A DNA stretch of 64,000 bases from Escherichia phage vB_EcoM_DE16, in the sequence record OP595145.1, one strand, 5' to 3'. This document shows positions 19,626 to 37,461 of the stretch, in pieces. The notes under the pieces were generated by a model that was given only the letters and a program-made list of their open reading frames with translations, did not search any database and had not been told where the DNA came from. Numbering within the stretch: position 1 is the stretch's first letter; every line of letters starts with the position of its first letter. The translations under genes were made by a program, and so were the position numbers.

Positions 19626-19904
19626 TTAAAATGGTTCGTTAGTCTCCATCATATATTCTGCTTCTAGTTCTTCCATGTGCTTTCTAAATTGGAAAGCAAT
19701 TTCTGCTACAGTTACATTTAAATCTTTTTCAAAAACTTCTGTAGAGCCTTCGTAAAAACGAATACCGTCAATTAAAAGCCCTCCGTGGTAATCCCAATCA
19801 CTTTCACGAGAAAGCGGGTTAGGCTCTTCATAATAGTAATCCACCTCCACGACTAAGGCTTTCCCGTTACGAGTGGTGTATTCAAAATCAAAAGTGTTAA
19901 TCAT
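19626..19904 (-). CDS. hypothetical protein
   Basis: 92 aa; ATG overlaps upstream stop. Confidence 0.4.
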   Translation of the reverse strand: MINTFDFEYTTRNGKALVVEVDYYYEEPNPLSRESDWDYHGGLLIDGIRFYEGSTEVFEKDLNVTVAEIAFQFRKHMEELEAEYMMETNEPF

Positions 19905-20848: not shown

Positions 20849-20855
20849 ACTTCAC

Positions 20856-22476: not shown

Positions 22477-22484
22477 TATCTCTC

Positions 22485-23048
22485 CTAAATAGTTTTACTG
22501 TGATCGTGACAGTGTAATAAATGATGTATAGACCGTTGAGGATTTGTTTGACCTAATCTGTAAATGTGGAACAGATACATTCCCCGCATCAATCCTAACC
22601 TTTTTCCTTTTTCGTGTAAAGTGCGAGAGAAAATTAAGTCAAATTGAATAGATTTTTCTTCGAAAGGAATTTCATTCCATAGTGATTTCCTAAAAAGCAA
22701 AAAGAAACCTGCCAGAGGTGTTCCGAAAGGAACTTCTTCAACACTCACTTTATGATATTCTCTTGCAATCTTAGCATATTCTATATGGTTTAGAATATCT
22801 GGATCATCGTTAATTTGGTTAGAGAAAAGCTGATAACCACTGCCTAACCTGTTACAAGTTGCACCTATTACATCAAAAGGCGGGTTTGACATAACAAGCT
22901 CTTCAAGCATAGATGGTTGATCAGGTAGGAGGAACATTGTATCGGTATCTCTTAAACACACCCAACTATCATCTGGAAGAACGGCAATGGCTTCATTGAT
23001 AGCCTTGCCGATATTTCCTGTCAGATAGGGAGTAATATAATAAATCAT
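22485..23048 (-). CDS. putative glycosyltransferase-like protein (DxD-type)
   Basis: 187 aa; WVCLRDTDTMF D-x-D-like motif; weak assignment. Confidence 0.3.
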   Translation of the reverse strand: MIYYITPYLTGNIGKAINEAIAVLPDDSWVCLRDTDTMFLLPDQPSMLEELVMSNPPFDVIGATCNRLGSGYQLFSNQINDDPDILNHIEYAKIAREYHKVSVEEVPFGTPLAGFFLLFRKSLWNEIPFEEKSIQFDLIFSRTLHEKGKRLGLMRGMYLFHIYRLGQTNPQRSIHHLLHCHDHSKTI

Positions 23049-23749: not shown

Positions 23750-24271
23750 TTAACTCCCCTTTGGTAGATAGAAACCATGCACTTTATCTCGATAAACAAG
23801 ACGCATATCACGTTCCCAGTGTGTCCTTATATTCCGTTTCTTGAAGTATAGAGCACCTTTAGTAACATCTAAAACAGACCGCAATTCAGGAAAATGTTTC
23901 TCTAAATAAAGTAAACGCTCCGCTATTGCTTTTGCTTCCTGCCATTTATCTTTTTCTGTTACGTTAAAAGTTTTCGCATATGAGAATTGCCCTTTCTGGA
24001 ACAAAACTCCTCTGACTGTGTTAGGGAAGTAGGTATCATTTCTTCTGTTGATTACCACATTCCCAACGGCATTCATTCCTTTTTTACCCAGACCGCGACC
24101 TTCTGCGTAAATTGCACAAGCTAATAGAATTTTATCATTATATTGCTTTGTACATTTGTGAACTACTTTAGCGGTTTTTACGTTTGCAGCTTCGGCTTTC
24201 GCCACAACAGGTGTAAATGTAAAAGCAGTTAAGGATAGTAACGCAACTGTTACAAAGTTTTTTATCAGCAA
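23750..24271 (-). CDS. endolysin, SleB/CwlJ-type cell wall hydrolase with N-terminal signal peptide
   Basis: 173 aa; signal-like LLIKNFVTVALLSLTAFTFTPVVAKA; core LACAIYAEGRG...VGNVVINRRNDTYFPNTVRGVLFQKGQFS; TTG start after AAGGAGG. Confidence 0.6.
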   Translation of the reverse strand: MLIKNFVTVALLSLTAFTFTPVVAKAEAANVKTAKVVHKCTKQYNDKILLACAIYAEGRGLGKKGMNAVGNVVINRRNDTYFPNTVRGVLFQKGQFSYAKTFNVTEKDKWQEAKAIAERLLYLEKHFPELRSVLDVTKGALYFKKRNIRTHWERDMRLVYRDKVHGFYLPKGS

Positions 24272-24370: not shown

Positions 24371-24973
24371 TTATGGACATTCATACCATTCTTTTTTACC
24401 ACCGAAGGCCATCACCACATCACAAATATCCAGACCAGCTTTACCTACACCATATGCTTTCAGCTTCCATTCTCCATCTTCACGAACCAAGGAAGCCACG
24501 TGGCAGATTGTGTTGCCAGCTACTTCAGGAGCCAGGAAGTCAAAATCCAGAATTTCCACATTGCGCTCGGAGTCGAAGATTTTAAGCATACCTTCAGAAG
24601 CATGACCAAAACGTTTCAGACCTGTATCATCATCAATGGTCAGAACAAAGGCAATCTCTTGTGCATCAGGAGAGATTTTAGCCAGAGTAATATCAATCTG
24701 CTCCATGCTGCCAGTTCCATCACGAACATCATCACCAGCGAAGGTAGAACGTTCAGGATCAAACTTGTTAGCATAGCAAACCAGATGACGTGCAGACAGC
24801 ATTTCAGGATTGCCAGCGGCATTGTGACGACAAACCAGTGCACTTACATCCAGGTCCAGTTTAGAATCAGATTTCCAAGAGAATTCCAGGCGCAGTTCTT
24901 TCAGAGCCGGAGCAACTTTCTTCAGGGAAATTTTTTCGCTAGAGCCTTTTTTCAGGGAAATTTTATCAGTCAT
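24371..24973 (-). CDS. terD: TerD-family protein
   Basis: 200 aa; N-terminal KISLKKGSSEKISLKK repeat, LDLDVSALV, GDDVRDGTGS, EIAFVLTIDD and GEWKLKAYGVG match the bacterial TerD pattern. Confidence 0.75.
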   Translation of the reverse strand: MTDKISLKKGSSEKISLKKVAPALKELRLEFSWKSDSKLDLDVSALVCRHNAAGNPEMLSARHLVCYANKFDPERSTFAGDDVRDGTGSMEQIDITLAKISPDAQEIAFVLTIDDDTGLKRFGHASEGMLKIFDSERNVEILDFDFLAPEVAGNTICHVASLVREDGEWKLKAYGVGKAGLDICDVVMAFGGKKEWYECP

Positions 24974-24988
24974 CTTTTGTCTCCTCTA

Positions 24989-25258
24989 TTATTTAAGTGT
25001 AATACCAGTTACAGTCAATTCTACTTCCAAAAGCTTAGATGTGTTTTGGATTGATACTAATTGTGCATGATGGTTTAGTTCTACAGCAGAATAATCATTC
25101 TCCCCATCATCTACTTTTAAATAAACAATAACTTCACTAAGGTCTAAACCATTTTCGTCAAATGCAGTTTCATAGACGAAAGTATCTCCTACATCCAAAT
25201 CTTTAATGGTAAGGCATCGTTTATTTACTTTTTGCTCATCAATTTCGAAGTTTAACAC
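24989..25258 (-). CDS. hypothetical protein (paralog A, C-terminus ...LEVELTVTGITLK)
   Basis: 89 aa; GTG start after AGGAGG; directly upstream of terD; paralog of 26280..26558. Confidence 0.4.
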   Translation of the reverse strand: MLNFEIDEQKVNKRCLTIKDLDVGDTFVYETAFDENGLDLSEVIVYLKVDDGENDYSAVELNHHAQLVSIQNTSKLLEVELTVTGITLK

Positions 25259-25487
25259 TTCTTCCTCCTAATGTTATCTCCGGTTTGTATATACGAAGAA
25301 TTATAGCATTTTCATTTTCTTTGTCAACCCATTCTTCATAATCGGGCCATACATGAATCTCTACTCTATTCGCAATATCTTCCATCCGCACAGTCCCAAT
25401 GAAATACTCTTTGAGACTGCGCATAATGAAAGCTTCTCTCTCGCGCCAATAATTTTCTACGACTTGAGAGGCAAGCTCGTCGATCAT
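25239..25487 (-). CDS. hypothetical protein
   Basis: 82 aa; ATGA overlap with upstream stop. Confidence 0.35.
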   Translation of the reverse strand: MIDELASQVVENYWREREAFIMRSLKEYFIGTVRMEDIANRVEIHVWPDYEEWVDKENENAIILRIYKPEITLGGRSVKLRN

Positions 25488-26278
25488 TTTTTAGCACCTA
25501 CTTTAACAACCCACTCTCCGAACTCTTCAGATAAGAGTTTGTCATAAAGCTCTGAATCTGTCAAGTCTAAATCTTTAATGCCAATAAAACCAACATTATC
25601 ATAAGCATTTGCCAGTTCTTTCAGGAAGCCAAACTTCTCATTACCAACGCCAACCATGAACCAATAGATAGGCTTATTCTTATTTTCTTCAATAAGACGA
25701 CGAACAGCACTAGGATCACCATTCTCACCATCTGTCTGGAAGAATACAACACCAGGGGTAACGTCAGCACCTGGTTCAGATACAGCTACAACCTTTTCAC
25801 GCTCTACAGACACTGTTTCAGTTTTACCAAGCAGACGATTAAAGAAGCCTTTCTTTGGAGCCTCCTCTTGTACCACTTGTTTAGTGGTAATATATTTGGT
25901 AACAGTGCCAAAATACTCATCGTAGATATCTGCCATTACAGGGGCGTAATTTGTTCCACCTCCGATACGAACATTACGCATACATTTACCAACATAGTCA
26001 TCGTAAACGTCTGCTGTTGCTGGAGTAAGCTCTTGAGAACTCGTATTGAAGGCCCACATGTCAATTTGTTCATTATCGTCGAACAGCATACCAAAAGGAA
26101 GCAGTTTACCTACAAAATCACTCACTACCCCACGAGCATATAGACTATGCATACTACCAGAAATATCTAGAGCACATGCTACACGAAGAACAATCTTACC
26201 TTCATTCAGGTTCTTATTCTTTTTCAGAGAGAAAGCAAGGTTTTCTTGACGTTTTTTCAGGCTGATTTTCTCGGACAT
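25484..26278 (-). CDS. von Willebrand factor A (vWA) domain protein with TerD-like N-terminal repeat (TerY-like)
   Basis: 264 aa; N-terminal MSEKISLKKRQENLAFSLKK; MIDAS motif ALDISGSM. Confidence 0.65.
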   Translation of the reverse strand: MSEKISLKKRQENLAFSLKKNKNLNEGKIVLRVACALDISGSMHSLYARGVVSDFVGKLLPFGMLFDDNEQIDMWAFNTSSQELTPATADVYDDYVGKCMRNVRIGGGTNYAPVMADIYDEYFGTVTKYITTKQVVQEEAPKKGFFNRLLGKTETVSVEREKVVAVSEPGADVTPGVVFFQTDGENGDPSAVRRLIEENKNKPIYWFMVGVGNEKFGFLKELANAYDNVGFIGIKDLDLTDSELYDKLLSEEFGEWVVKVGAKK

Positions 26279-26279
26279 A

Positions 26280-26558
26280 TTATTTCTCCTTCTTAAGTGT
26301 AATGTTGGTAACTTCTAAATCTACTTCCACCATATTTGTATCTGGTGGGATACAATGAGTATAGCCTCGTTGTGCTAGTGATCCATTAATACAAATCGCA
26401 CTGTTTGTGGAATTTTTAATGAACACCAAGTTACGGTAGGTATCCAACCCTGCGTCTTCATAGGCATCATAATACATGAATGTGGCCCCTATGCCAAGAT
26501 CTTCGAAAGCAATAGGCAAATCCTGACACTTTTCTTCTTGAATATTGAATCTAAACAC
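26280..26558 (-). CDS. hypothetical protein (paralog B, C-terminus ...VEVDLEVTNITLKKEK)
   Basis: Track ORF trimmed to GTG preceded by GAGGAGG; colinear with paralog A; directly upstream of the vWA gene. Confidence 0.35.
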   Translation of the reverse strand: MFRFNIQEEKCQDLPIAFEDLGIGATFMYYDAYEDAGLDTYRNLVFIKNSTNSAICINGSLAQRGYTHCIPPDTNMVEVDLEVTNITLKKEK

Positions 26559-27114
26559 GCATACCTCCTCTACCAATTTTGAAGCCCAAATCGTAAGCTT
26601 CCTTAGTGATCTTTTGTAACTCACTTATAGGAAGTGTTACAAGAGGATCATCTTCTTCAATTTCCATCTTGTCATCTTCTGTTTCAATGAGAGTATTATG
26701 CACTTTGTGATAAGGGTTGTCAACACGTTTAAACTTATTCTTTTCTGTGCTGAAAAAACAATCTGGATCTTCTTCACCATCACCCCAACCTTGGTTAGGA
26801 TCTCCGTCAGATTGTTCTGTAGGGATTTCACCTGTAAAGTACTCTTCCAGCACCATAGCAATACCGTCCCTTGGATTTGAGGAATGCATTAAATCACAAA
26901 CCTTACCCCAATCCATAGCCCATTCGAACCGTTCACGAACGCCATTTTCATCCTCCTTTCCAGAGAAAACACAACCATAACTATCATAGTTGCCATACAT
27001 CTCTTCAATAACAACACCATCCTTCAAAAGAAAGAGATAACAAGGTGATCCGTCGAAAGAAGTAGAAAGGGCAGCTTTGCCAGATTCCTTACACAAAAAA
27101 CTAAAACAACCCAT
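26551..27114 (-). CDS. hypothetical protein
   Basis: 187 aa; acidic, Cys-containing; ATG start. Confidence 0.4.
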   Translation of the reverse strand: MGCFSFLCKESGKAALSTSFDGSPCYLFLLKDGVVIEEMYGNYDSYGCVFSGKEDENGVRERFEWAMDWGKVCDLMHSSNPRDGIAMVLEEYFTGEIPTEQSDGDPNQGWGDGEEDPDCFFSTEKNKFKRVDNPYHKVHNTLIETEDDKMEIEEDDPLVTLPISELQKITKEAYDLGFKIGRGGMRV

Positions 27115-27317
27115 TACAAACCCTCCTTCAGATTATCAAGAGCTACAGTGGTTTCACAAAAGTCTCCATACGTTTTATGATGTTCCAGAAAAGCTTCGGG
27201 TCCACCCCAATCATTATCTTGTGTATTCCAGCCATCAATAAAAGCATCTTCAATGATTGTGATCAGTTCTTGTCGGGTTAACTGGATAATATCAGGATCG
27301 TTATCGTAGTTAAACAT
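27114..27317 (-). CDS. hypothetical protein
   Basis: 67 aa; start overlaps upstream stop. Confidence 0.35.
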   Translation of the reverse strand: MFNYDNDPDIIQLTRQELITIIEDAFIDGWNTQDNDWGGPEAFLEHHKTYGDFCETTVALDNLKEGL

Positions 27318-27483
27318 CTTCTTCCTCCTCTAAAATATGAAACCCGTAATTACAATAGTCCTGAAATGTTTCGTGTGCAAGATCTTCTATATCCTCTTGA
27401 GACATATCATCTTCAATTTCGATATCCACAACCTCATTGCATCCACACCAAGCAGTTTCAATATTCACTCGTAATATTTTCAT
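27310..27483 (-). CDS. hypothetical small acidic protein (57 aa), not in supplied ORF track
   Basis: AGGAGGAATA RBS plus ATG overlapping upstream stop; hand translation MKILRVNIETAWCGCNEVVDIEIEDD...; coordinates approximate. Confidence 0.3.
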   Translation of the reverse strand: MKILRVNIETAWCGCNEVVDIEIEDDMSQEDIEDLAHETFQDYCNYGFHILEEEEDV

Positions 27484-27680
27484 TATTCCTCCTCCTCGTT
27501 GAAGTCGATATCTGCAAGTAGTTGGAATTTACGGAAGTTACGACAACCTTCATAAATATAACAATCACGACAAACTGCTAGAACACTTGGGGGATATATG
27601 CCTCCCATCGGTGCGAATCGTTTTTCGTCATCATAACGGACACCAATGTCTTCATCAATTATATAGATACGGATTCTCAT
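27483..27680 (-). CDS. hypothetical Cys-containing small protein
   Basis: 65 aa; ATGA overlap with the TelA-like gene. Confidence 0.35.
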   Translation of the reverse strand: MRIRIYIIDEDIGVRYDDEKRFAPMGGIYPPSVLAVCRDCYIYEGCRNFRKFQLLADIDFNEEEE

Positions 27681-28789
27681 TTACCAAGCCCTCGTTTCAC
27701 AGCAGCTACCATCCCGTCTTCCAGAGATTGAACTTCATTAATATAATCAACACGAGCAGCACGGGCTTCCGTATTGATGCGGTTAGTTTCTTCCAACATC
27801 TTAACCAAGTTTTCCTGATCGTGACGCAGAGTTTCAATATCCAACACTTGACGGTTAGCCAGTGCTGCTGCTTCGATCTGATTCTGTGTGGCAAGATCGC
27901 TACCCAGTTTAATTGCCAGGTTAAATTCGTCAAGAACGTTATTCTGCGTCTCTGCTGCTTTCATTTGACGTAAGCTCTCGATATACATGGAGAAGTTAGC
28001 AGAGTAAGCAGGAATAACATTATTTACTATGTTACGCGCAGATCGCATTAAGCTTGCAGAAACTTTTTGCATACCTTGTACACGCGGTCCCATTTGGACA
28101 CACAGTAGGCGCAATGCTTTTAAATCTGCAATACGAATCTCCAGAAGATCCAAAGTATCTCGGATCACTTGTCGCTGTTCTACTGCATCTTCTGGAAGAG
28201 CAGCCAAAGCTTGTTCTTCTTTTTCATAGGTTGCTGTTAGAAGCTGCATATCTCGGTTCAAACTTGCAGCATATTGTCCAATAGCTTGATGTAGCTTTTC
28301 AAGATATACCAAGGAATCTTCTTCTTTGCGAATATCCATTTGAAGGTTCTTTACCAACTCTTCAATACGGTTATTAACATTATCAAACTCCCCAAACAGG
28401 TCTTCTTTCATACCCATAACTTTTTTAATGAGTTTAGTAATACCCTTGCTTTGTTTAATAGAGTTTGGATCAAGTTGTTTTGCCTGTTTAATCAAAGCTG
28501 TGAGTCGTTCACTCATCTGATCACCTTGATTACTACGTTGATGTTTTAATACCTCGGCATTCAAGGAACGCAAGGTTGTTCCTGCCTCTGCCCCGATTTC
28601 TTCGATTTCTTGCCTGGTCATAGAAGGCAAAGCTGGTACTTCTTGCGGTGCGGCTGGTGCATAAACAGGACTGGCATCTAACACGCTTGGAGCGAATACA
28701 GATTTACTGGCATCTGTTGTTGCAGCAAATACGCTCATTTCAGGCTTCTTCTGACCACCAGTAGCTGCTTTTAAAAATGGACTTGTCAT
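27677..28789 (-). CDS. TelA/KlaA-like toxic-anion-resistance family protein (predicted all-helical)
   Basis: 370 aa, helical/coiled-coil composition, size and neighbourhood (TerD, vWA, TerC) fit TelA; no sharp motif. Confidence 0.45.
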   Translation of the reverse strand: MTSPFLKAATGGQKKPEMSVFAATTDASKSVFAPSVLDASPVYAPAAPQEVPALPSMTRQEIEEIGAEAGTTLRSLNAEVLKHQRSNQGDQMSERLTALIKQAKQLDPNSIKQSKGITKLIKKVMGMKEDLFGEFDNVNNRIEELVKNLQMDIRKEEDSLVYLEKLHQAIGQYAASLNRDMQLLTATYEKEEQALAALPEDAVEQRQVIRDTLDLLEIRIADLKALRLLCVQMGPRVQGMQKVSASLMRSARNIVNNVIPAYSANFSMYIESLRQMKAAETQNNVLDEFNLAIKLGSDLATQNQIEAAALANRQVLDIETLRHDQENLVKMLEETNRINTEARAARVDYINEVQSLEDGMVAAVKRGLGK

Positions 28790-29376
28790 TCTTCATTCTC
28801 CTCTTCTGCATCTCTTATATATGGTGAAACACCGTACTCTTTAGCTACTTTAACCCAATCGTCCCATTTATACAACCATAATTTTCCTTCTGTCCCTTCT
28901 TTATCTGATTTCAACCACATATTAGGTTGCTTACCTGGGTACATGCGATTAGGTTTACGATTATAACCTCTAACACATCTTGTCGCAAACCTATCTACCA
29001 GAACAAGAACATATTTATATTCGTGGTTCAACGGCTCTTTGGAAGTGGCTTTAGGATTAGCCCCTAATTCTGCTGCCAGTTTTTGCCAATGAGCACCGTG
29101 CCTACTAAACTTACCCATACAACCATCAATAGCATGAGCAATTTCGTGCTTCATTGTATCTACGATCATATCTCTTGTGGAGTTCTTATGCAAGTGCCAA
29201 TTTACAACAACAATTTTATCTCGGTAGTTGCACCAACCGAAAGAGTTATTCACTTTGTTTCTAACACAAGCTTTATATCCTGCTTCACGTAACATGTTGT
29301 AGTAAACAGGAAAATCTTCTTTTATTTCCTGCATCACTTCCCACCACAAGAGTTGCAAGTCTCTCTCGGTATGCAT
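28786..29376 (-). CDS. SprT-like zinc metalloprotease domain protein
   Basis: 196 aa; HEIAH (HExxH) followed by GKFSRHGAHW. Confidence 0.5.
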   Translation of the reverse strand: MHTERDLQLLWWEVMQEIKEDFPVYYNMLREAGYKACVRNKVNNSFGWCNYRDKIVVVNWHLHKNSTRDMIVDTMKHEIAHAIDGCMGKFSRHGAHWQKLAAELGANPKATSKEPLNHEYKYVLVLVDRFATRCVRGYNRKPNRMYPGKQPNMWLKSDKEGTEGKLWLYKWDDWVKVAKEYGVSPYIRDAEEENEE

Positions 29377-29379
29377 AAC

Positions 29380-29973
29380 TTACACCTTAAAAGCGAAATG
29401 TGTGGTCGTGGCTTCAAAATCAGGGCCAGATAAACTTGCACTGAAATCTGAAATATTTGTAATTAAAAAGCTTTTATGCATACCTAACACAGCCACGCTT
29501 TCAATATCTTCTACTAACATTTCAATCATGTTAGAAACATGGCTGAACGTATAGTTTTGTTTTTTGATGGTGTAGAAAGAAAGACTCCCACCTGCTGTAT
29601 AAGATACCTCTTCAAAATCTTTAATCGTATATTGTGTGCCATCAGTAAAGAAAATGGTAGCTTTATTAGTAGCACGTTTCTTGTTTTTTGGTCCTTTTTT
29701 ACGTTTACTGCGAGTAGGCAAACCATTTGGAAATACCGTAGCTACAAATTCTTCAGGAGAAACCTCCTTACCGAAATCATAACCGTAAGAAACAGCGTCT
29801 ATAAACTCGTCGTCTTCATTTTTAAAATAATGAAAATAGGGCCAATTTGAGAGATTATCGAGCATCTTGTGCTCATCCACAGCAGAGAACGTATCCCTCA
29901 AAGCACGTGTGATTTGCAAAGCATTAGGCAAACTTTTAACACCTGTAATGGAAGTACGAATAGAAATTGTCAT
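29380..29973 (-). CDS. hypothetical protein
   Basis: 197 aa ORF with ATG start. Confidence 0.4.
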   Translation of the reverse strand: MTISIRTSITGVKSLPNALQITRALRDTFSAVDEHKMLDNLSNWPYFHYFKNEDDEFIDAVSYGYDFGKEVSPEEFVATVFPNGLPTRSKRKKGPKNKKRATNKATIFFTDGTQYTIKDFEEVSYTAGGSLSFYTIKKQNYTFSHVSNMIEMLVEDIESVAVLGMHKSFLITNISDFSASLSGPDFEATTTHFAFKV

Positions 29974-29987
29974 TGTTTTTCTCCTTA

Positions 29988-30425
29988 TTAACGTCGCTTG
30001 CTACGAGATGAACTCTTTTTACTTAAAGGGCTATTGTAAGATTTACGAGTTGTATAGCTACTATTTGTTTTAAAAGTTTGTCTCGGCTTTTCATAAGTTT
30101 TTATCTCTTGTTTAGGCTTACCATAAAAATTAGTTTTCGGTTTAGGTGTATTATAATGCTTATTAATAATCGTTCTGTTATCGTTATAATCTCCACTGCT
30201 ACGATTACTACCGCCACTCATCATATGCCCTAACAACATACCTGTAGCAAACTCACCAACACCGCTACTACTAGAACCGCCACCATTGTTGATAATAGTT
30301 GTATCTCCGTCAGATCCTTGTTGAGCGTATTGTTGAGGAGGTTGTTGGTATTGTGCAGGATTTGTTTCATCCTCGCAAGCTGTTAAAAAGATACAACCAA
30401 TTAAAATCAGGGCTAGTTTTTTCAT
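29988..30425 (-). CDS. lipoprotein (lipobox LTAC), Gly/Ser-rich with basic C-terminus
   Basis: Track ORF trimmed to ATG (MKKLALILIGCIFLTAC...) preceded by GAGGAAAG; signal peptidase II lipobox. Confidence 0.45.
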   Translation of the reverse strand: MKKLALILIGCIFLTACEDETNPAQYQQPPQQYAQQGSDGDTTIINNGGGSSSSGVGEFATGMLLGHMMSGGSNRSSGDYNDNRTIINKHYNTPKPKTNFYGKPKQEIKTYEKPRQTFKTNSSYTTRKSYNSPLSKKSSSRSKRR

Positions 30426-30612
30426 ATTTGCTTTCCTCGTTTTGGCTATTAATACATCTGTGTTTGAAATCTCCAGAGAAGCAATAAAGTTGCTCTCCAT
30501 CTCGGTATAAACTCACTTTACTGCCGTTGATTATGCTTGTCAATACAAAAATTACAACAAACAACCCTATTGCAAAACAGATATTTTCAAACACAACCAA
30601 CAAGTATTTCAT
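30367..30612 (-). CDS. small membrane protein whose 3' end overlaps the lipoprotein gene
   Basis: 81 aa; N-terminal TM helix; ATGA coupling to upstream gene; 59-nt out-of-frame overlap with lipoprotein start. Confidence 0.35.
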   Translation of the reverse strand: MKYLLVVFENICFAIGLFVVIFVLTSIINGSKVSLYRDGEQLYCFSGDFKHRCINSQNEESKYEKTSPDFNWLYLFNSLRG

Positions 30613-30959
30613 TTTAAAAATACCTCATCATCAGTTTCATTATCCCAGAAGAACAAATCCCAACCACTTGGATCATTCCATTTGGCTGCTGGAGAAGTCC
30701 ATATTTGCTCAATATCAATATTCAAAACTTCACCGTTTCGTTTTGAAACAGCTTTAGTTAATTCCCAACGGGATACAGGCTCCACTTCCCCTGAACCACT
30801 CCCACAACAAGCTACAACATTAGGAGGCAAATTAATTGGATCTTTGGTCACAATCATAACGCTTACCCCAGGGTAAACTTTTGAAAGATAATCTGAAATA
30901 TAATCCACATCACCAGATAAATCCCAAACAAGTTCTTGAATTTCATCAAAATTATTCAT
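30609..30959 (-). CDS. hypothetical protein
   Basis: 116 aa acidic ORF. Confidence 0.4.
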   Translation of the reverse strand: MNNFDEIQELVWDLSGDVDYISDYLSKVYPGVSVMIVTKDPINLPPNVVACCGSGSGEVEPVSRWELTKAVSKRNGEVLNIDIEQIWTSPAAKWNDPSGWDLFFWDNETDDEVFLK

Positions 30960-31001
30960 AAGTCTCTCCTATAAAATAGCCTCCCGAAGGAGGCTCATCT
31001 A

Positions 31002-31976
31002 TTAAACAGCAGCTTCTTCTTTTTCAGGGAAGATAAAGCTTGCAATAACACCAAGAGCTAATGTGCCTAGAACAATCATCAGACTTACGTTAGGGGAAAT
31101 ATCATGCGGGAGGAATGACCACTTGGCATGAAGTGTTTCACCGAACGGGTGATACATAAGTTTAGCACCAACAAACACCAGAACCACAGCAACAGCTTTC
31201 TCTAAGTGAACCAGATATTTCACAGCTACACTTAACACAAAGAAAAGTGCACGTAAACCAAGAACAGCCATCAGCATTGCAGAATAAACTAGCAGAGGTT
31301 CTTGTGTCACCCCGATCACAGCCGGAACTGAATCAAAAGAGAAGACAATATCTGTAAGCTCAATAACAAACACACAAAGAAGAGCAGGAGTTGCATATTT
31401 AATACCATTCTTAATGGTAATGAACTTTTCACCATCTAGTGCATTGTGCACAGGCAGAACTTTACCTACTAAACGAACAGCCCAATGCTTAGAGTAATCA
31501 ATATCCTCTTCTTCGTCACCACCTTTGATGATAGCCACGGCAGACCAAGCTACAATCAAACCGAACAACACTTGGACCGACCAATGAAGGTTAAACAAAG
31601 CGGTCCCTGCTGCAACAAAAATACCTCGGAAGACAATGGCTCCTGCAATCCCCCAAAGTAAAATCTTATGTTGGAGATGTGTGCTCTTAATTCCAAAGCT
31701 TGCAAAAATTGCCATGAACACCATCAGGTTATCTACAGAAAGACTCTTTTCCAACACATAACCACTTAGGAAAAGCGCGGCAAACTCTTTACCATGTTCT
31801 ACCCAAATGAATGCGTAATATCCTAAAGCTAAAGCAATCCAAAAAACAGACCAAAGCAAAGCAGATTTAATTCCAATTTCTTTATTCTCTTTATGACCAA
31901 AGAAATCGATACCAATAGACAATGCCAAAATACCAACTAAAACAACTACATCAATAATTGGGAAACCGAGTTGCAT
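31002..31976 (-). CDS. terC: TerC-family integral membrane protein
   Basis: 324 aa multi-pass membrane protein; SLSVDNLMVFMAIF and FSFDSVPAVIGVTQEPLLVYSAMLMAVLGLRALFF match TerC signatures. Confidence 0.75.
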   Translation of the reverse strand: MQLGFPIIDVVVLVGILALSIGIDFFGHKENKEIGIKSALLWSVFWIALALGYYAFIWVEHGKEFAALFLSGYVLEKSLSVDNLMVFMAIFASFGIKSTHLQHKILLWGIAGAIVFRGIFVAAGTALFNLHWSVQVLFGLIVAWSAVAIIKGGDEEEDIDYSKHWAVRLVGKVLPVHNALDGEKFITIKNGIKYATPALLCVFVIELTDIVFSFDSVPAVIGVTQEPLLVYSAMLMAVLGLRALFFVLSVAVKYLVHLEKAVAVVLVFVGAKLMYHPFGETLHAKWSFLPHDISPNVSLMIVLGTLALGVIASFIFPEKEEAAV

Positions 31977-32055
31977 TCTTTTCTCCTCTCTTTGCGGGGA
32001 ACTATTCCCCGCTTCATGTGATATATCTTACTCTTTTTAAGAACTATGTCAACAC

Positions 32056-32277
32056 TTATTTTGTTGAATGAGAGGAAAAGATTCCTCGTAATACCGCCAG
32101 AATAAACGAAACACAAACCACGGTCCAGAAGGTTACTGGGACAGTGATATCTGCATGACCCATAACTTCAGCAACATAGTTGTAAGCCAGCAACAGTAAC
32201 CAAGCTGGAATCAAACTAAGCATAAAAGCAATAACAAAAAAGCTTACCACTGCAACAATACCTGCAAAAACACCCAT
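32056..32277 (-). CDS. small two-helix membrane protein
   Basis: 73 aa; two hydrophobic segments. Confidence 0.4.
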   Translation of the reverse strand: MGVFAGIVAVVSFFVIAFMLSLIPAWLLLLAYNYVAEVMGHADITVPVTFWTVVCVSFILAVLRGIFSSHSTK

Positions 32278-32289
32278 ACTAATCTCCTC

Positions 32290-32763
32290 TTAAAGTTTAT
32301 AAATAGTCACATCGTGACCTGTTTTTACTAAAGTTTCTTCAATCATCACTTGGATGATAGCCCAATTACCTCCGGCATGTCCCGCTCCAATCATAGGTAA
32401 ACCGATCTTACATTTTTGGTCACGGAGAAGCAAATCATTAGCCATAGCTATTAGTGCATCGTATAGGGCATCATAGTCCAACTGACGACCTTTAGCATTA
32501 TATCCGTAACGGTATTGCCCGTATAGATTATATACCAAAGGGTCTGATTGTTCGTCTGGCACCCCTAAACTAAAAGAACCTAACTTACTTTGATCACCAG
32601 CCATTGTGTCTAAATCTGCCGCATATGCATAAGGGAATGCTCGTTTAATTTGCGGAGCAATTCCTGCCCCCATATTACACATACAATTGCAACAATGAGC
32701 AATAACAGTTACTTCACCTGCTTTAGCGGCATCAATAAGATTACCTGTTTTCATTTTAAGCAT
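32290..32763 (-). CDS. macro-domain-like protein (ADP-ribose binding/processing fold)
   Basis: 157 aa; VIAHCCNCMCNMGAGIAPQI and IGLPMIGAGHAGGNW resemble the macro-domain N-x6-GGG and G-x-G-x-G loops. Confidence 0.5.
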   Translation of the reverse strand: MLKMKTGNLIDAAKAGEVTVIAHCCNCMCNMGAGIAPQIKRAFPYAYAADLDTMAGDQSKLGSFSLGVPDEQSDPLVYNLYGQYRYGYNAKGRQLDYDALYDALIAMANDLLLRDQKCKIGLPMIGAGHAGGNWAIIQVMIEETLVKTGHDVTIYKL

Positions 32764-32775
32764 TTTAGCTCCTTA

Positions 32776-33603
32776 TTACAGAATGTGTTGTTTTGTGTAA
32801 CGATCCAAGAATTCAAAGTTTTCAGCATACTTTGAAATTCGGTTGTAACCTTCTCCCAAACATCCGAAGAAAAGTTGCTCTACATAGTAGTGTGGCAATT
32901 GGCTAAGAATGATTTTGAAGTCTTCGTGATTTTGGCCCATAAGATACTTAATAGGACGAACAAGACACTGTGCATCACGTTCTTCATTAATCATTTTAAC
33001 AAACGCTTCTGGTGTATTAATATAATTAAAATTCAGTTTAGCTTCGGTATCTGCTTGATTACCTTCATATTTTGCAAAATACAAGAAGTAAACATCATTT
33101 TTAACTTGATTTTCATCAAGGATCTCAATCAGTTTGTCTTCATGAGTTCCAGTGATATTTACATCATCAATAAACACAAGCTTCTTATCACCCCAGAATT
33201 CTTTGTTGCAGTAGAATGTATCCCCATCGATAAGTTTCTTACGACTAGCTTTATCCAAGAAACCATAATCGTTGATATAGCTAACTTTACGATGAATAAT
33301 ATCCAGTTCTGCTGAACGACCTTGATCATATTGTGATTGCAACATATTAAAGTAATTAATAAAATGATCTGTCATCATTGTTGCAGCATTATGCACATGG
33401 TTGTAAGGAGAAGGAATGATAACAAATTGTTCCCCAATATGTTTCATTGCCACTTGAGCAAAAAACTGAAGTGCCAATTCTTTACCCATACGACGCGCAG
33501 CCTGGTTACTACCAAATTTCAATTTTGAATAATCTTGGATATCAAAAGTAGCAGTTTCCAGGTCATCAAATTTATTTGCAAAAATTTGAGTTTGATTACG
33601 CAT
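32776..33603 (-). CDS. type I phosphoribosyltransferase-like protein
   Basis: 275 aa; PRPP-loop-like KLVFIDDVNITGTH. Confidence 0.5.
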   Translation of the reverse strand: MRNQTQIFANKFDDLETATFDIQDYSKLKFGSNQAARRMGKELALQFFAQVAMKHIGEQFVIIPSPYNHVHNAATMMTDHFINYFNMLQSQYDQGRSAELDIIHRKVSYINDYGFLDKASRKKLIDGDTFYCNKEFWGDKKLVFIDDVNITGTHEDKLIEILDENQVKNDVYFLYFAKYEGNQADTEAKLNFNYINTPEAFVKMINEERDAQCLVRPIKYLMGQNHEDFKIILSQLPHYYVEQLFFGCLGEGYNRISKYAENFEFLDRYTKQHIL

Positions 33604-34252
33604 TTACAATTTCTCCTCTTTTAAGTTTCTCTAGTAAGTCGTTAGGGTTCTTAATATGACAGAAGTTAATCCCTATGTCAACACATTTACCATCAAATTC
33701 TTCGCTGTCCCCAACATGTAAAATCTCTTCAGCCTTCAAAGGAATGCTTGAATATGTGGCGGTCCTAACAAAGAATCTAGGATCTGGTTTACACAACAGA
33801 TGTTCGTCTGAAAAATGCATAAATTCAAAACAATTCCAACTGTCGAACATACAAGCACGACGCAAAATATCCCCAGATATAAAATTAGTATTGCTTTTAA
33901 TACTAAGATCATATTTACCAGACAAGTATAGCAAACAAACTGGCAAATCTAAAGCAATATGTGGAGGAAATTTAAGAAACCATTGCTCACACTCAAAACG
34001 CATTTGTGCAGATTCTACAGGGGTTAAACCTATCTTTCTTCCCAACATATTCCATGCATATGCTACACCTTCTGCACACCCATTTAGTGCAGCATTATCC
34101 ATAATTTCTTTGGCATCTTTATATGCTTCTTTTGCCGCACGTTCAGACATTCTACCATATGTAGCAATAGTGTGCGTACGTGCATCTGCATAGTTTTGAT
34201 TGGCAGAAATAAGAGTATTCCATACATCAAAAGAGATATGTTTTATTGTCAT
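33596..34252 (-). CDS. HAD-superfamily hydrolase (phosphatase)-like protein
   Basis: Track ORF trimmed to ATG after GGTGGG; motif I-like FDVWNTL, conserved Lys (CKPDPRFF), motif IV-like HVGDSEEFD. Confidence 0.5.
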   Translation of the reverse strand: MTIKHISFDVWNTLISANQNYADARTHTIATYGRMSERAAKEAYKDAKEIMDNAALNGCAEGVAYAWNMLGRKIGLTPVESAQMRFECEQWFLKFPPHIALDLPVCLLYLSGKYDLSIKSNTNFISGDILRRACMFDSWNCFEFMHFSDEHLLCKPDPRFFVRTATYSSIPLKAEEILHVGDSEEFDGKCVDIGINFCHIKNPNDLLEKLKRGEIVNA

Positions 34253-34253
34253 A

Positions 34254-34859
34254 CTAGGCCCACCATGCATCAAGATTTAAGTTACTGTCTACCACAACTT
34301 GTTCTATGTGGTAGCCTTTTATCTGTATGCCACTGTTCAAGAGCATATCATATGCTTCATTGAAACGCAACTTATCTTCTGCGGAATATAAGCGAGCATT
34401 ATAAAATCGGTAATCAATTTCTTCAGCATTAGAAGAAATACGGAAGAAGTTTGTTTCTACTTCGGGATCACTTGCTGAAGTCTTAATGTGAACTTCTCCA
34501 TAATTTTCTTTACTTAGATCCATGAAAAGAACACAGGCAACATGTTTAAACATTCGTTCCAGTTTGTAACGAACAACATTGAAACCTGCATTCTCAAGTT
34601 TTTCTACACACTGCAACATTAAAGTAGTGTCGAGATCGCTTTGATACTTTGTTAACATACGATCACGTTGAGACTTTGTATCCCGATGTAAATCAATTGT
34701 TGTGCATTTTGCACCAATAATCTTAGCTGCTTTCATCAACTCTTCAGAACTAACGTTAGATAAAGTAAGATGAAAATGGGCTTTCCACACTTTTTTAGCA
34801 GGGACACCAAAAGATTTATCCCCACTATTCGGCATGTTGACTACTACACTATGTTGCAT
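34254..34859 (-). CDS. hypothetical protein (one H-x-T-x motif, weak 2H-phosphoesterase-like hint)
   Basis: 201 aa; HFHLTL motif; second motif not clear. Confidence 0.35.
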   Translation of the reverse strand: MQHSVVVNMPNSGDKSFGVPAKKVWKAHFHLTLSNVSSEELMKAAKIIGAKCTTIDLHRDTKSQRDRMLTKYQSDLDTTLMLQCVEKLENAGFNVVRYKLERMFKHVACVLFMDLSKENYGEVHIKTSASDPEVETNFFRISSNAEEIDYRFYNARLYSAEDKLRFNEAYDMLLNSGIQIKGYHIEQVVVDSNLNLDAWWA

Positions 34860-35079: not shown

Positions 35080-35550
35080 TTAATCTGATTGCCAACCACT
35101 TGCCGTTTTGGTCCATAATCTTTGATTATCTGACCCTCTGAAAGGTTTTGTAGTTGGATTGTTTATTTCATACTTTCCGTCTACAATAATGTCAACAAGA
35201 TTTTTAATATATAAAGGCACTTCCTCAAAAGTATATCCTGTATACACCATTATATCTTTGCTTGACCCATAAACGTCTCTAACCTTTTCTATAAGGCTTT
35301 TAACATTGTAAATATTCTGCGGATCTAATGGTTCTCCTCCTAAAATTGTTAAACCTTTTACAAACGGTCTTGACAAATCTTTTAAAACTTGCTCTACATT
35401 TTCGTGAGTAAATGGTTTCCCGTAAGAATAAGACCAGGCTTTCTGGTTAAAACAGCCACGACAACCGTGGCTACAACCACTAACCCAGAGGGAGCACCTA
35501 ACTCCCTCACCATTAATAAGATCTACAGGTTCATATCCTGCAAAATTCAA
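35080..35550 (-). CDS. nrdG: anaerobic ribonucleoside-triphosphate reductase activating protein (radical SAM)
   Basis: 156 aa; CxxxCxxC cluster (GCSHGCRGC); colinear with T4 NrdG including C-terminal RGSDNQRLW. Confidence 0.85.
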   Translation of the reverse strand: MNFAGYEPVDLINGEGVRCSLWVSGCSHGCRGCFNQKAWSYSYGKPFTHENVEQVLKDLSRPFVKGLTILGGEPLDPQNIYNVKSLIEKVRDVYGSSKDIMVYTGYTFEEVPLYIKNLVDIIVDGKYEINNPTTKPFRGSDNQRLWTKTASGWQSD

Positions 35551-37424: not shown

Positions 37425-37455
37425 GGGAAATCAAAAAAGGCGCAAAGTGCGCCTT
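37425..37455 (-). terminator. rho-independent terminator after the 449-aa gene
   Basis: Minus-strand AAGGCGC-ACTTT-GCGCCTT hairpin followed by TTTTTTGATTT. Confidence 0.65.
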
Positions 37456-37461
37456 TAAGTT

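What the first reader, a model, noticed from the sequence alone, without database searches (positions are those of the whole stretch)
24371..34273. Phage-borne Ter-type module (TerD, TerD-N/vWA, TelA-like, TerC) co-clustered with PRTase, HAD phosphatase, macro-domain and SprT-like genes
Within about 10 kb of a virulent-phage replication operon lie, co-directionally: a canonical TerD (24371-24973), a vWA protein with a TerD-like N-terminus (25484-26278), a 370-aa helical TelA-sized protein (27677-28789), an HExxH SprT-like protein (28786-29376), a TerC membrane protein (31002-31976), a macro-domain-like protein (32290-32763), a type I phosphoribosyltransferase-like protein (32776-33603) and a HAD-like hydrolase (33596-34252), interleaved with unknown ORFs. 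In bacteria, ter loci are known to associate with PRTase/HAD enzymes proposed to make a nucleoside-like metabolite, and TerC proteins are linked to Mn export. The same logic packaged into a lytic phage, next to T4-like nrdDG, suggests the phage imports a host stress or metal-homeostasis signalling system, or an ADP-ribose/nucleotide-processing pathway, for takeover or counter-defense. I know of no characterised phage system with this composition, but I cannot check that here.
Basis: partly seen in the sequence, partly recalled or inferred. Interest (0 to 1): 0.9.

Follow-up and report, generated by a model that had tools for sequence, protein, structure and literature searches.

The report
Phage-borne Ter stress-response gene cluster
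A lytic E. coli phage of the phAPEC8/phi92 group carries a cut-down copy of the bacterial "tellurite resistance" (Ter) membrane system plus two small-molecule enzymes; the genes are real and travel together in many unrelated phages, but the cluster is already annotated and discussed in the literature, and nobody has shown by experiment what it does.

Summary
All eight named genes exist at the stated coordinates on the minus strand, and profile matches are strong for TerD, vWA-TerF-like, TelA, TerC and PRTase_3, but weak for Macro and HAD. The window is a Phapecoctavirus, 98.5% identical to Escherichia phage nieznany. Sixty-one phage records carry at least 80% of the region, so it is not a chimera.

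Comparing loci in phage genomes, viral contigs, metagenomes and one plasmid splits the region in two:
- **Six-gene core:** TerC/Alx-type exporter, TerD, vWA-TerF-like, TelA, and an adjacent HAD-then-PRTase_3 pair. These recur together, in shuffled orders, in several unrelated phage lineages.
- **Lineage-specific neighbours:** the macro domain (TARG1/DarG class), the SprT-like protease and the 201-aa ORF.

No ATP-grasp or aldolase was found in the two proteins modelled.

The kind is known. Iyer et al. 2021 describe phage Ter systems with PRTase and HAD enzymes. The phi92, PhiPsa374 and PhiKp34 papers or records name the ter genes.

The most likely role is inferred, not shown: an early-expressed membrane and metal-homeostasis module that protects the infected cell and excludes rival phages, coupled to an unknown ribosylated metabolite.

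Interest is modest. Its value is as a tractable minimal Ter system in a coliphage.

The parts
24371..24973 (-). TerD (200 aa), core component
   Evidence: Pfam TerD E 3e-28. Matches Klebsiella TerD 2kxt at 1.5e-15. The canonical Ca-binding loop GDN.TG.G.GDDE is degenerate here (GDDVR--DGTGSME) but intact in the TerDs of CcrColossus, L007 and L008.
25484..26278 (-). Standalone vWA-TerF-like protein (264 aa), core component
   Evidence: Pfam PF10138 E 8e-38. The MIDAS motif DISGS is present and conserved as DxSGS in 5 phage lineages. The first ~20 residues mirror the N-terminus of the TerD of the same phage in each lineage.
27677..28789 (-). TelA-like protein (370 aa), core component
   Evidence: Pfam TelA E 3e-33. 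AlphaFold model has pLDDT 72 and is all-helical with a long hairpin. No specific solved match.
31002..31976 (-). TerC/Alx-subfamily inner-membrane cation exporter (324 aa), core component
   Evidence: Pfam TerC E 3e-40. NCBIfam TIGR03718 TerC/Alx 319 bits against a cut-off of 246. 32% identical to E. coli Alx, with E86, D92, E213, D216 and D222 all invariant (residues from PMC10197570).
32776..33603 (-). PRTase_3 (ComF-like phosphoribosyltransferase, 275 aa), core component
   Evidence: Pfam PF15610 E 2e-41. The PRPP loop DDVxITGxH is invariant in 8 orthologues. 156 phage records carry a homologue.
33596..34252 (-). HAD-fold hydrolase (218 aa from the ATG; the ORF runs from a TTG at 34273), core component paired with PRTase_3
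   Evidence: Profile match to 2om6 at 1.5e-21. Invariant nucleophile Asp, Ser/Asn, Lys and GDxxxD, but an invariant Trp at the Asp+2 position. It lies directly upstream of PRTase_3 in 19 of 21 viral loci.
32290..32763 (-). Macro domain protein (157 aa), a lineage-specific neighbour and not core
   Evidence: Pfam Macro 23.0 bits against 22. DarG HMMs at 4.5e-9 and 1.6e-10. Nearest solved: SCO6735 5e3b at 1e-12, then BT1257, T. aquaticus DarG and TARG1. Adjacent to the pair only in Stephanstirmvirinae-like loci.
28786..29376 (-). SprT-like HExxH metallopeptidase (196 aa) whose stop overlaps the TelA start; lineage-specific
   Evidence: Pfam SprT-like E 4e-9. Absent from phi92. Found in only 2 of 21 viral loci.
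34254..34859 (-). 201-aa protein of unknown function, overlapping the HAD start; lineage-specific
26551..27114 (-). 187-aa protein of unknown function, conserved with the cluster inside the subfamily only
   Evidence: phrog_14928. 76% identical in phi92. Seen only in Stephanstirmvirinae-like loci.
24989..25258 (-). Small ORF (89 aa), paralogue of the ORF at 26280-26624
   Evidence: tblastn of h89 hits the phi92 homologue of h114. DNA repeats D1 and D4 are spaced ~1300 nt apart.
26280..26624 (-). Small ORF (114 aa as listed; annotated as 92 aa in Shigella phage SF1-1), paralogue of 24989-25258
30978..30995 (-). Terminator-like hairpin just after terC
   Evidence: 7-bp stem with 5 G-C pairs and a T-rich tail. 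Pattern match only.
25300..25327 (-). Perfect sigma-70 consensus (TTGACA-16-TATAAT, with TG) upstream of the 89-aa ORF and terD
   Evidence: Pattern match only.
32025..32052 (-). Sigma-70-like site (10 of 12) in the gap upstream of terC
   Evidence: Pattern match only.

Best explanation
This is a virus-encoded, reduced Ter system.

**Six-gene core**
- TerC, an Alx-type inner-membrane divalent-cation exporter.
- TerD, a beta-sandwich protein.
- A standalone vWA-TerF-like protein with an intact MIDAS metal site.
- TelA, a long helical protein.
- An adjacent HAD-fold hydrolase then PRTase_3 pair.

**Shown**
- The family memberships.
- Conservation of the Alx export residues, the MIDAS motif, the PRPP loop and the HAD nucleophile.
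- Recurrence of these six genes as a neighbourhood, in different orders, in unrelated phages.

**Inferred**
- The genes are expressed from host-type promoters in the early/replication region.
- TerC moves Mn2+ or a related cation across the inner membrane.
- TerD, vWA and TelA assemble with TerC under the membrane in a metal-dependent way.
- PRTase_3 joins PRPP to an unknown base-like acceptor, and the HAD enzyme processes the product into a nucleoside-like molecule that serves as signal or cofactor.
- The net effect is to keep the envelope and ion balance of the infected cell stable and to shut out secondary invaders (other phages, colicins). Plasmid and chromosomal Ter systems do this in bacteria.

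The macro, SprT-like and 201-aa genes are separate accessory genes that sit in the same region.
For: **Family identity:**

**Active-site conservation**
- The five Alx acidic residues are invariant in four phage TerCs (the residues were defined by mutagenesis in PMC10197570).
- DxSGS MIDAS motif.
- DDVxITGxH PRPP loop.
- HAD motifs I-IV.

**Linkage**
- The HAD ORF lies directly upstream of PRTase_3 in 19 of 21 IMG/VR loci.
- Ter genes are contiguous with the pair in L016, L020, L021, L023, L024 and L029, in different orders, as well as in the 5 Stephanstirmvirinae-like loci.
- Metagenomic phage contigs L007 and L008 read TerC-x-TerD-x-vWA-HAD-PRTase_3.
- CcrColossus has a compact TelA-vWA-DUF475-TerD operon and carries the pair 25 kb away.
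- phi92 keeps all six genes at 47-81% identity while losing SprT-like and the 201-aa ORF.

**Function by analogy**
- Deleting Klebsiella terC lowers Te, Zn and Mn resistance and enlarges phage plaques. Insertions in terC, terD or terZ of plasmid R478 abolish phage inhibition and colicin resistance (PMC12054061).
- TerC proteins export Mn or metalate exoenzymes (PMC10197570, PMC10550928).
- Iyer et al. 2021 proposed the same reading for jumbo phages.
Against: - No experiment on any phage Ter gene was found in the held library. PhiPsa374's authors state that the function is unknown.
- The parts also occur apart. TelA, but neither TerD nor PRTase_3, was found by these BLAST searches in listed RaK2/121Q-like jumbo phages. 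The HAD-PRTase_3 pair occurs alone, within the flanks fetched, in Rhizobium phages, in 10 of 21 viral loci and on Rhizobium plasmid pRL10.
- In the window the genes are interleaved with about 12 unknown ORFs and split by a terminator-like site.
- The Ca-binding loop of this TerD is degenerate.
- The HAD enzyme has Trp where phosphatases have the general acid Asp, so 'nucleotide phosphatase' is not assured.
- No yybP-ykoY riboswitch precedes terC.
Confidence: 0.5

Rival explanations
1. Metal management for the phage's own benefit, not exclusion. TerC, with TerD, vWA and TelA as regulators, adjusts cytoplasmic or periplasmic Mn, Zn or Ca during infection. This would keep phage metalloenzymes correctly loaded, or metalate exported phage proteins such as the adjacent endolysin. 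The metabolite pair would serve an unrelated nucleotide function.
For: - The phage TerC meets the Alx subfamily cut-off and keeps all Mn-export residues.
- TerC proteins metalate exported enzymes in Bacillus (PMC10550928).
- The cluster lies between an endolysin (23750-24271) and nrdDG.
Against: - It does not explain why the HAD-PRTase_3 pair is repeatedly contiguous with Ter genes.
- There is no Mn riboswitch or other metal-sensing element.
- Adjacency to the endolysin and nrdDG is not conserved in distant phages.
Confidence: 0.2
2. Macro, PRTase_3, HAD and neighbouring genes form an ADP-ribose, NAD or nucleotide-processing pathway that disarms host immunity, and the Ter proteins counter membrane-targeting abortive-infection effectors.
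For: - The macro domain is of the TARG1/DarG class.
- The window also encodes a NADAR protein (51798-52340) and a DUF4326 protein (42092-42460).
- NAD-salvage genes lie near the pair in some phages: an NMNAT/Nudix gene in RHph_TM2_3B, and PnuC and AAA_28 genes in L008.
Against: - The macro gene is adjacent to the pair only in Stephanstirmvirinae-like loci. It scores far below the DarG equivalog cut-off, 36 bits against 250.
- PRTase_3, HAD, TerD, TelA, TerC and vWA hit no PADLOC model.
- The ADP-ribose genes are scattered across the window, not clustered.
Confidence: 0.15
3. There is no system. The region is a mosaic of independently acquired accessory genes that lie together only because non-essential genes collect in this part of the genome.
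For: - Many interleaved unknown ORFs, internal promoter-like and terminator-like sites, and turnover of neighbours between phi92 and this phage.
- TelA or the HAD-PRTase_3 pair occur alone in some phages and plasmids.
Against: - The same six families recur together in several unrelated phage lineages with shuffled gene order, which is the classic sign of functional coupling.
- TerD homologues were found in only 148 of 50,697 phage records and PRTase_3 homologues in 156, yet they co-occur in Stephanstirmvirinae, Caulobacter and Brevundimonas phages, XaC1 and several uncultured lineages.
Confidence: 0.1

Closest known systems
Phage Ter systems described by Iyer, Anantharaman, Krishnan, Burroughs & Aravind 2021 (Acinetobacter phage vB_AbaM_ME3; Caulobacter jumbo phages)
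   Same: TerD, TerC, TerF-type vWA and TelA, with PRTase and HAD 'signal biosynthesis' enzymes, carried by virulent phages. The authors proposed a role in competition with superinfecting phages (PMC7824862). CcrColossus was checked here and has a TelA-vWA-DUF475-TerD operon plus the HAD-PRTase_3 pair.
   Different: - This phage is about 150 kb, not a jumbo phage.
- Its genes are spread over 10 kb and interleaved with other ORFs.
- Its TerC is Alx-type, not DUF475-type.
- Its TerD has a degenerate Ca loop.
Ter genes of phi92, PhiPsa374 and PhiKp34 as annotated or noted in their records and papers
   Same: phi92 gp172, gp173, gp178, gp182, gp186 and gp187 are orthologues at 47-81% identity. They are annotated as stress protein, toxic anion resistance, tellurium resistance membrane protein, PRTase and hydrolase. 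PhiPsa374 has terC, terD, terF and telA, as does PhiKp34.
   Different: - Those sources list the genes and leave the function open.
- No PRTase is mentioned among the ter genes that the PhiPsa374 and PhiKp34 passages list.
Bacterial terZABCDEF systems (IncHI2 plasmid R478, E. coli O157, Klebsiella plasmids)
   Same: TerC, TerD-family and TerF-type vWA proteins. Phenotypes are tellurite, Zn and Mn resistance, phage inhibition and colicin resistance (PMC12054061).
   Different: - The phage has one TerD instead of the TerZ/A/D/E/F paralogues.
- It has no TerB.
- Its vWA protein is standalone, not fused to a full TerD domain.
- TelA is present, whereas it belongs to a separate telAB/kilA system on plasmids (my knowledge).
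E. coli Alx (TerC family Mn2+ exporter)
   Same: Same NCBIfam subfamily. 32% identity. All five export-critical acidic residues are kept.
   Different: - No yybP-ykoY riboswitch lies upstream.
- There is no DNA similarity to host alx, so this is not a recent host capture.
TARG1/DarG/SCO6735-class macrodomains
   Same: The best profile and solved-structure matches of the 157-aa macro protein fall in this class.
   Different: - It scores far below the DarG equivalog cut-off.
- It has no DarG C-terminal domain.
- No DarT gene is nearby among the annotated genes.
P. horikoshii PH0253 (PDB 2om6), a HAD protein of unknown function
   Same: Best solved relative of the phage HAD (1.5e-21). It shares the unusual FDVWNTL motif I.
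   Different: It is archaeal, from structural genomics, with no known substrate and no PRTase partner known to me.

Membership tests
TerD (PF02342) | Profile match above the curated cut-off over the whole domain | tested here: met
   98.9 bits against 25.3, residues 5-179. Klebsiella TerD 2kxt at 1.5e-15.
TerD (PF02342) | Canonical Ca2+-binding loop GDN.TG.G.GDDE | tested here: not met
   The window and phi92 have (A)GDDVR--DGTGSME, with a 2-residue deletion and loss of the GDDE cluster. CcrColossus, L007 and L008 keep the motif. The DLDxSA strand is kept.
TerC / Alx subfamily (PF03741, TIGR03718) | Profile match above the curated cut-offs | tested here: met
   Pfam 138 bits against 27.8. TIGR03718 319 bits against 246.
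TerC / Alx subfamily (PF03741, TIGR03718) | Transmembrane acidic residues required for Mn2+ export (Alx E86, D92, E213, D216, D222) | tested here: met
   All five are invariant in the alignment of E. coli Alx with four phage TerCs. The residues come from PMC10197570.
TerC / Alx subfamily (PF03741, TIGR03718) | yybP-ykoY Mn riboswitch in the leader, as in E. coli alx | tested here: not met
   No Rfam match at E up to 1 in 20000-45000.
vWA-TerF-like (PF10138) | Profile match and MIDAS motif | tested here: met
   131 bits against 29.4. DISGS motif, conserved as DxSGS in five lineages.
TerF architecture (TerD domain fused to vWA) | Full N-terminal TerD domain | tested here: not met
   No TerD Pfam hit on the 264-aa protein. 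Only ~20 N-terminal residues resemble TerD.
TelA (PF05816) | Profile match above the cut-off over the whole length | tested here: met
   115.7 bits against 30, residues 59-361 on profile positions 13-327 of 332. All-helical model.
PRTase_3 (PF15610; type I phosphoribosyltransferase) | Profile match and PRPP-binding loop | tested here: met
   142.5 bits against 28.7. VFIDDVNITGTH, with DDVxITGxH invariant in 8 orthologues.
PRTase_3 (PF15610; type I phosphoribosyltransferase) | PRPP-dependent transferase activity and acceptor identity | not testable with these tools
   No solved or characterised relative was found by sequence.
HAD superfamily phosphatase | Four HAD motifs with a nucleophile Asp | tested here: met
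   D9, S117/S120-N121, K155 and G181-D182...D187 are invariant in 8 orthologues. Profile match to 2om6 at 1.5e-21. Pfam and NCBIfam scores of the single sequence fall below the cut-offs.
HAD superfamily phosphatase | General acid/base Asp at nucleophile+2 (DxD), typical of phosphatases | tested here: not met
   Invariant Trp (FDVWNTL), as in 2om6. An aromatic residue at this position is a trait of haloacid dehalogenases (my knowledge); 1jud matches the profile at 1.8e-6.
Macro domain / DarG antitoxin | Macro profile above the cut-off | tested here: met
   23.0 bits against 22, which is marginal. Supported by 5e3b at 1e-12.
Macro domain / DarG antitoxin | DarG equivalog score, and a DarT partner | tested here: not met
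   36 bits against a cut-off of 250. No DarT gene is listed among the annotated neighbours.
SprT-like (PF10263) | Profile match and HExxH motif | tested here: met
   36.7 bits against 25.6. HEIAH is present in the sequence.
Ter system (functionally linked gene set in the sense of Anantharaman et al. 2012) | Conserved neighbourhood of TerC, TerD, vWA and TelA with PRTase and HAD across unrelated genomes | tested here: met
   six viral loci outside this phage subfamily plus two metagenomic contigs, with differing gene orders.
Ter system (functionally linked gene set in the sense of Anantharaman et al. 2012) | Other components of the full bacterial system (TerB, ATP-grasp, C-C lyase, further PRTases) | tested here: not met
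   None was found among the ORFs of 20-42 kb scanned, or among 44 other ORFs of the window scanned.
Ter system (functionally linked gene set in the sense of Anantharaman et al. 2012) | Tellurite, metal, phage or colicin resistance phenotype | not testable with these tools
   Needs experiments.

The most novel reading that the evidence does not exclude
The HAD(Trp+2)-PRTase_3 pair is a mobile two-gene synthase shared by phages and rhizobial plasmids, and it makes a still unknown ribosylated small molecule. In phages that also carry TerC, TerD, vWA and TelA, that molecule is the ligand switching a metal-dependent sub-membrane complex which closes the infected cell to further phage DNA entry. That would be a virus-encoded, small-molecule-gated exclusion device. 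The matched N-terminal hairpins of TerD and vWA would be the shared docking element. Finding the molecule would finally say what Ter systems do.
Probability: 0.12. Interest if true: 0.75.

Novelty: already known. Interest (0 to 1): 0.3.

Why it matters
Ter systems are widespread in bacteria, plasmids and phages, and the held literature still describes their physiological function as unclear (PMC12054061). This coliphage group offers a minimal version in a lytic phage of E. coli K-12: one TerC, one TerD, one vWA protein, one TelA and a two-enzyme metabolite pair. Members were isolated on MG1655. That makes gene-by-gene deletion, metabolite discovery and exclusion assays practical.

Three things added here are useful for designing such work:
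- A clear core of six genes, separated from the accessory genes around it.
- Evidence that the HAD-PRTase_3 pair is an autonomous unit.
- An active-site audit: the Alx residues are kept, the TerD Ca loop is lost, and the HAD enzyme lacks the phosphatase general acid.

As a discovery, though, the cluster is already annotated and interpreted in print.

Tried and rejected
2. **Search for missing ATP-grasp or aldolase components.** No Pfam hit for 26551-27114, 29380-29973, 34254-34859, 37462-38811 or 38808-39362. PHROG labels ('ribonucleotide reductase', 'histidyl tRNA synthetase') were not followed up.
3. **TelA as a relative of PspA/ESCRT-III or ClyA-type proteins.** The model has moderate confidence (pLDDT 72, pTM 0.45), and Foldseek returned only generic helical bundles at E of 5.7e-3 or worse. 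No claim is made.
4. **Mn riboswitch before terC.** None found.
5. **Recent capture of host alx.** No DNA match in 5,426 E. coli genomes.
6. **PRTase_3 as a ShosT-, PsyrT- or retron-type toxin.** No PADLOC hit.
7. **Solved relatives of PRTase_3.** None, apart from the PRPP loop.
8. **The ~400-aa protein of L007, L008 and L024 as a divergent TelA.** hhalign gives E 1.5e-3 but probability 17%, so this is inconclusive.
9. **Anantharaman et al. 2012** (PMC4104200) is not held, so it is cited only through other papers and from memory.
10. **Scans not run.** A scan of bacterial genomes for the PRTase_3 context was not run because of its cost. Bacterial context rests on one Rhizobium plasmid and on the literature.

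Full report
**1. What is there**

Genes between 19.9 and about 45 kb of the window run on the minus strand.

| Gene | Coordinates | Result |
|---|---|---|
| TerD | 24371-24973 | Pfam E 3e-28 |
| vWA-TerF-like | 25484-26278 | Pfam E 8e-38 |
| TelA | 27677-28789 | Pfam E 3e-33 |
| SprT-like | 28786-29376 | Pfam E 4e-9, HEIAH motif |
| TerC | 31002-31976 | Pfam E 3e-40 |
| Macro | 32290-32763 | 23.0 bits against a cut-off of 22 |
| PRTase_3 | 32776-33603 | Pfam E 2e-41 |
| HAD-like | 33596-34252 | Pfam E 1.4e-3 only |

The HAD assignment becomes firm with a profile of eight orthologues, which matches the solved HAD protein 2om6 at 1.5e-21. NrdG and NrdD follow at 35080-37361. A helicase, a primase/helicase and a DNA polymerase lie nearby in the annotated relatives.

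**2. Where it comes from**

- The region is 98.5% identical to Escherichia phage nieznany and 96-98% identical to dozens of other Phapecoctavirus genomes. Sixty-one records carry at least 80% of it.
- G+C is uniform across the window.
- The terC DNA matches nothing in 5,426 E. coli genomes.
- So this is genuine phage DNA, not a chimera and not a recent host capture.
- GenBank records already label these genes as TelA-like, tellurite resistance, integral membrane protein TerC, VWA domain protein, putative orotate phosphoribosyltransferase, phosphatase and hydrolase. The phi92 record does the same.

**3. Core and accessory genes**

*Comparison with phi92.* phi92 belongs to Justusliebigvirus, a different genus of the same subfamily.
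- It keeps TerD (81%), vWA (67%), TelA (79%), TerC (71%), Macro (49%), PRTase_3 (65%) and HAD (47%). It also keeps the 187-aa ORF and some small ORFs.
- It lacks SprT-like, the 197-aa ORF, the lipoprotein, the 116-aa ORF and the 201-aa ORF.

*Distribution in phage records.* tblastn against 50,697 phage records gave these counts.

| Protein | Records with a match | Found in |
|---|---|---|
| PRTase_3 | 156 | Stephanstirmvirinae, Rhizobium, Brevundimonas and Caulobacter phages, Xanthomonas phage XaC1 |
| TelA | 224 | The above except Rhizobium phages, plus PhiPsa374-like and RaK2/121Q-like phages |
| TerD | 148 | Stephanstirmvirinae, Brevundimonas, Caulobacter, one Acinetobacter phage, XaC1 (weak) |

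*The HAD-PRTase_3 pair.* In every distant phage inspected, a HAD gene lies directly upstream of PRTase_3 and is orthologous to the window's HAD at 30-41% identity.

*Scan of IMG/VR.* A scan with the PRTase_3 alignment returned 21 viral loci. HMMs built here from the phage proteins show the following.
- HAD lies directly upstream of PRTase_3 in 19 of 21 loci.
- Five loci are Stephanstirmvirinae-like and carry the full set.
- Six of the other sixteen have Ter genes contiguous with the pair, in different orders:
  - L016 and L020: TelA-vWA ... DUF475-HAD-PRTase_3-TerD.
  - L021: TelA-HAD-PRTase_3-vWA ... DUF475-TerD.
  - L023: TerC-vWA-TerD-TerD-TelA-HAD-PRTase_3.
  - L024: TerC-x-TerD-x-vWA-HAD-PRTase_3.
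  - L029: TerD-TerD-DUF475-HAD-PRTase_3.
- Two metagenomic phage contigs repeat the L024 layout.
- CcrColossus has a compact TelA-vWA-DUF475-TerD operon and carries the pair 25 kb away.

Recurrence with shuffled order across unrelated phages is the standard sign of functional coupling.

*Genes that do not travel with the core.* Macro is adjacent to the pair only in Stephanstirmvirinae-like loci. SprT-like appears in 2 of 21 loci and the 201-aa ORF in 3 of 21. I therefore treat these three as neighbours, not parts.

*The pair on its own.* The pair also occurs alone in 10 viral loci, in Rhizobium phages and on Rhizobium plasmid pRL10. It is therefore an autonomous unit that is often, but not always, combined with Ter proteins.

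**4. Active-site audit**

- **TerC.** It belongs to the Alx subfamily (319 bits against a cut-off of 246). It is 32% identical to E. coli Alx. All five acidic residues that mutagenesis showed to be needed for Mn2+ export (E86, D92, E213, D216, D222; PMC10197570) are invariant in four phage TerCs. No Mn riboswitch precedes the gene.
- **vWA.** The MIDAS motif DxSGS is conserved.
- **TerD.** The window and phi92 proteins have lost the canonical GDN.TG.G.GDDE calcium loop. The TerDs of CcrColossus, L007 and L008 keep it.
- **PRTase_3.** The PRPP loop DDVxITGxH is invariant. No solved or characterised relative exists by sequence.
- **HAD.** The nucleophile Asp and motifs II-IV are invariant. The Asp+2 general acid typical of phosphatases is an invariant Trp (FDVWNTL). 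The uncharacterised archaeal protein 2om6 has the same motif, and haloacid dehalogenases have an aromatic residue at this position (my knowledge). Phosphatase activity on a nucleotide is therefore plausible but not assured.
- **TelA.** The model is an elongated all-helical protein with no specific structural match.

**5. The neighbours**

- **Macro.** Its best matches are the DarG models, SCO6735, BT1257, T. aquaticus DarG and TARG1. That class removes ADP-ribose from proteins or DNA. The score is far below the DarG equivalog cut-off. The window also encodes a NADAR protein (51798-52340) and a DUF4326 protein (42092-42460). This suggests a scattered anti-ADP-ribosylation toolkit, not a Ter component.
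- **201-aa ORF.** Homologues occur only on what look like phage contigs, judged by their lengths of about 145-155 kb. The model is confident (pLDDT 83) and shows a tandem ferredoxin-like fold with no solved relative. It matches two PADLOC 'AbiEi' models. It is neither an ATP-grasp nor an aldolase.

**6. Mechanism**

*Shown.* Family membership, conserved catalytic and binding motifs, and conserved linkage of six genes.

*Inferred.*
- The genes sit in the early/replication region and have sigma-70-like sites upstream. One is a perfect consensus at 25327-25300, before terD (pattern match only).
- TerC exports Mn2+ or a related cation.
- TerD, vWA and TelA form a metal-dependent assembly at the membrane.
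- PRTase_3 and HAD make a ribosylated small molecule that signals to, or is used by, that assembly.

*Supporting analogy.*
- In bacteria, Ter genes confer phage inhibition, colicin resistance and metal resistance (PMC12054061).
- Iyer et al. 2021 proposed that phages use Ter against superinfecting rivals.

I adopt that reading at about 0.5. Identity is about 0.95 and the specific function about 0.35. The rivals are metal management for phage enzymes (0.2), a counter-defence pathway (0.15) and coincidence (0.1).

**7. Novelty**

- The kind is known and this very cluster is annotated in public records.
- No experimental work on any phage Ter gene was found in the held library. PhiPsa374's authors say the function is unknown.
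I give 0.3, for the value of a minimal and tractable Ter system.

Noticed in passing
window 24947-24985 vs 26252-26290, and 24993-25029 vs 26293-26329; also L005, L006, L007, L008: In five phage lineages, the first ~10-20 residues of the standalone vWA protein mirror those of the TerD of the same phage. Examples are MTDKISLKK/MSEKISLKK in the window, VTDTINLTK/MSDVINLAK in CcrColossus and MDFDLDKGD/MNFDLEKAT in L008. In the window the similarity extends to the DNA: 77% over 39 nt, including the ribosome-binding site. It also extends to the 3' ends of the small paralogous ORFs upstream of both genes. This points to a duplicated junction, gene conversion or a shared docking motif.
   Followed up: partly
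window 34254-34859 (-): A 201-aa protein confined to Phapecoctavirus-like contigs. The predicted fold is confident (pLDDT 83) and tandem ferredoxin-like, with invariant HxHxT, RxKxE and ExHxK strands. It has no solved relative, yet matches two PADLOC 'AbiEi' models over their full length (4.7e-13). It may be a phage copy of an antitoxin-like protein.
   Followed up: partly
window 51798-52340 (+), 42092-42460 (-), 32290-32763 (-): The window encodes three separate ADP-ribose-related proteins: NADAR (1.8e-35), DUF4326 (8.6e-22) and the TARG1/DarG-class macro domain. They are scattered, not clustered.
   Followed up: partly
L009 (Rhizobium johnstonii plasmid pRL10) 9346-10819; L003 4519-6034: The HAD-then-PRTase_3 pair occurs as a lone two-gene cassette on large rhizobial plasmids (17 plasmid records match) and in Rhizobium phages. 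No Ter genes were found within the flanks fetched.
   Followed up: partly
window 38808-39362 (-) and 39359-39610 (-): A 184-aa protein has class II aminoacyl-tRNA-synthetase-like motifs (PHROG 'histidyl tRNA synthetase', no Pfam hit). It is followed by an 83-aa MazG/PRA-PH-like protein. Both are conserved in phi92, at 82% and 75%.
   Followed up: no
window 19904-23048 (-): Four consecutive glycosyltransferase genes, as annotated in Shigella phage SF1-1 and phi92, lie just downstream of the endolysin and Ter region.
   Followed up: no
window 29988-30500 (-): An ORF with an internal start gives MKKLALILIGCIFLTAC, a lipoprotein signal with a lipobox, followed by a low-complexity Gly/Ser/Asn-rich region. 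It lies between SprT-like and TerC and is absent from phi92.
   Followed up: no
L007 4603-5772 and 7094-8029; L008 5392-6600 and 7311-8486; L024 5009-6211 and 6889-7800: Two conserved unknown proteins (~400 and ~300-390 aa) sit between TerC, TerD and vWA in three uncultured phage contigs that lack a recognisable TelA. The ~400-aa one aligns collinearly with TelA, but only at hhalign E 1.5e-3 and probability 17%.
   Followed up: partly
phage records MG065650, MG065656, MG065639: Records named 'Campylobacter phage' B15, C3 and A150 match the window's ter-region genes like the E. coli phages of this subfamily do: B15 at 96.6% DNA identity over the whole region, C3 and A150 at the same protein identities as phi92-type phages (65-81%). 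The host labels look doubtful.
   Followed up: no
window 37436-37456 and 30978-30995 (-): Terminator-like hairpins follow the 449-aa ORF and terC. They suggest that nrdD through terC form one transcription unit, and the 116-aa ORF through terD another.
   Followed up: no
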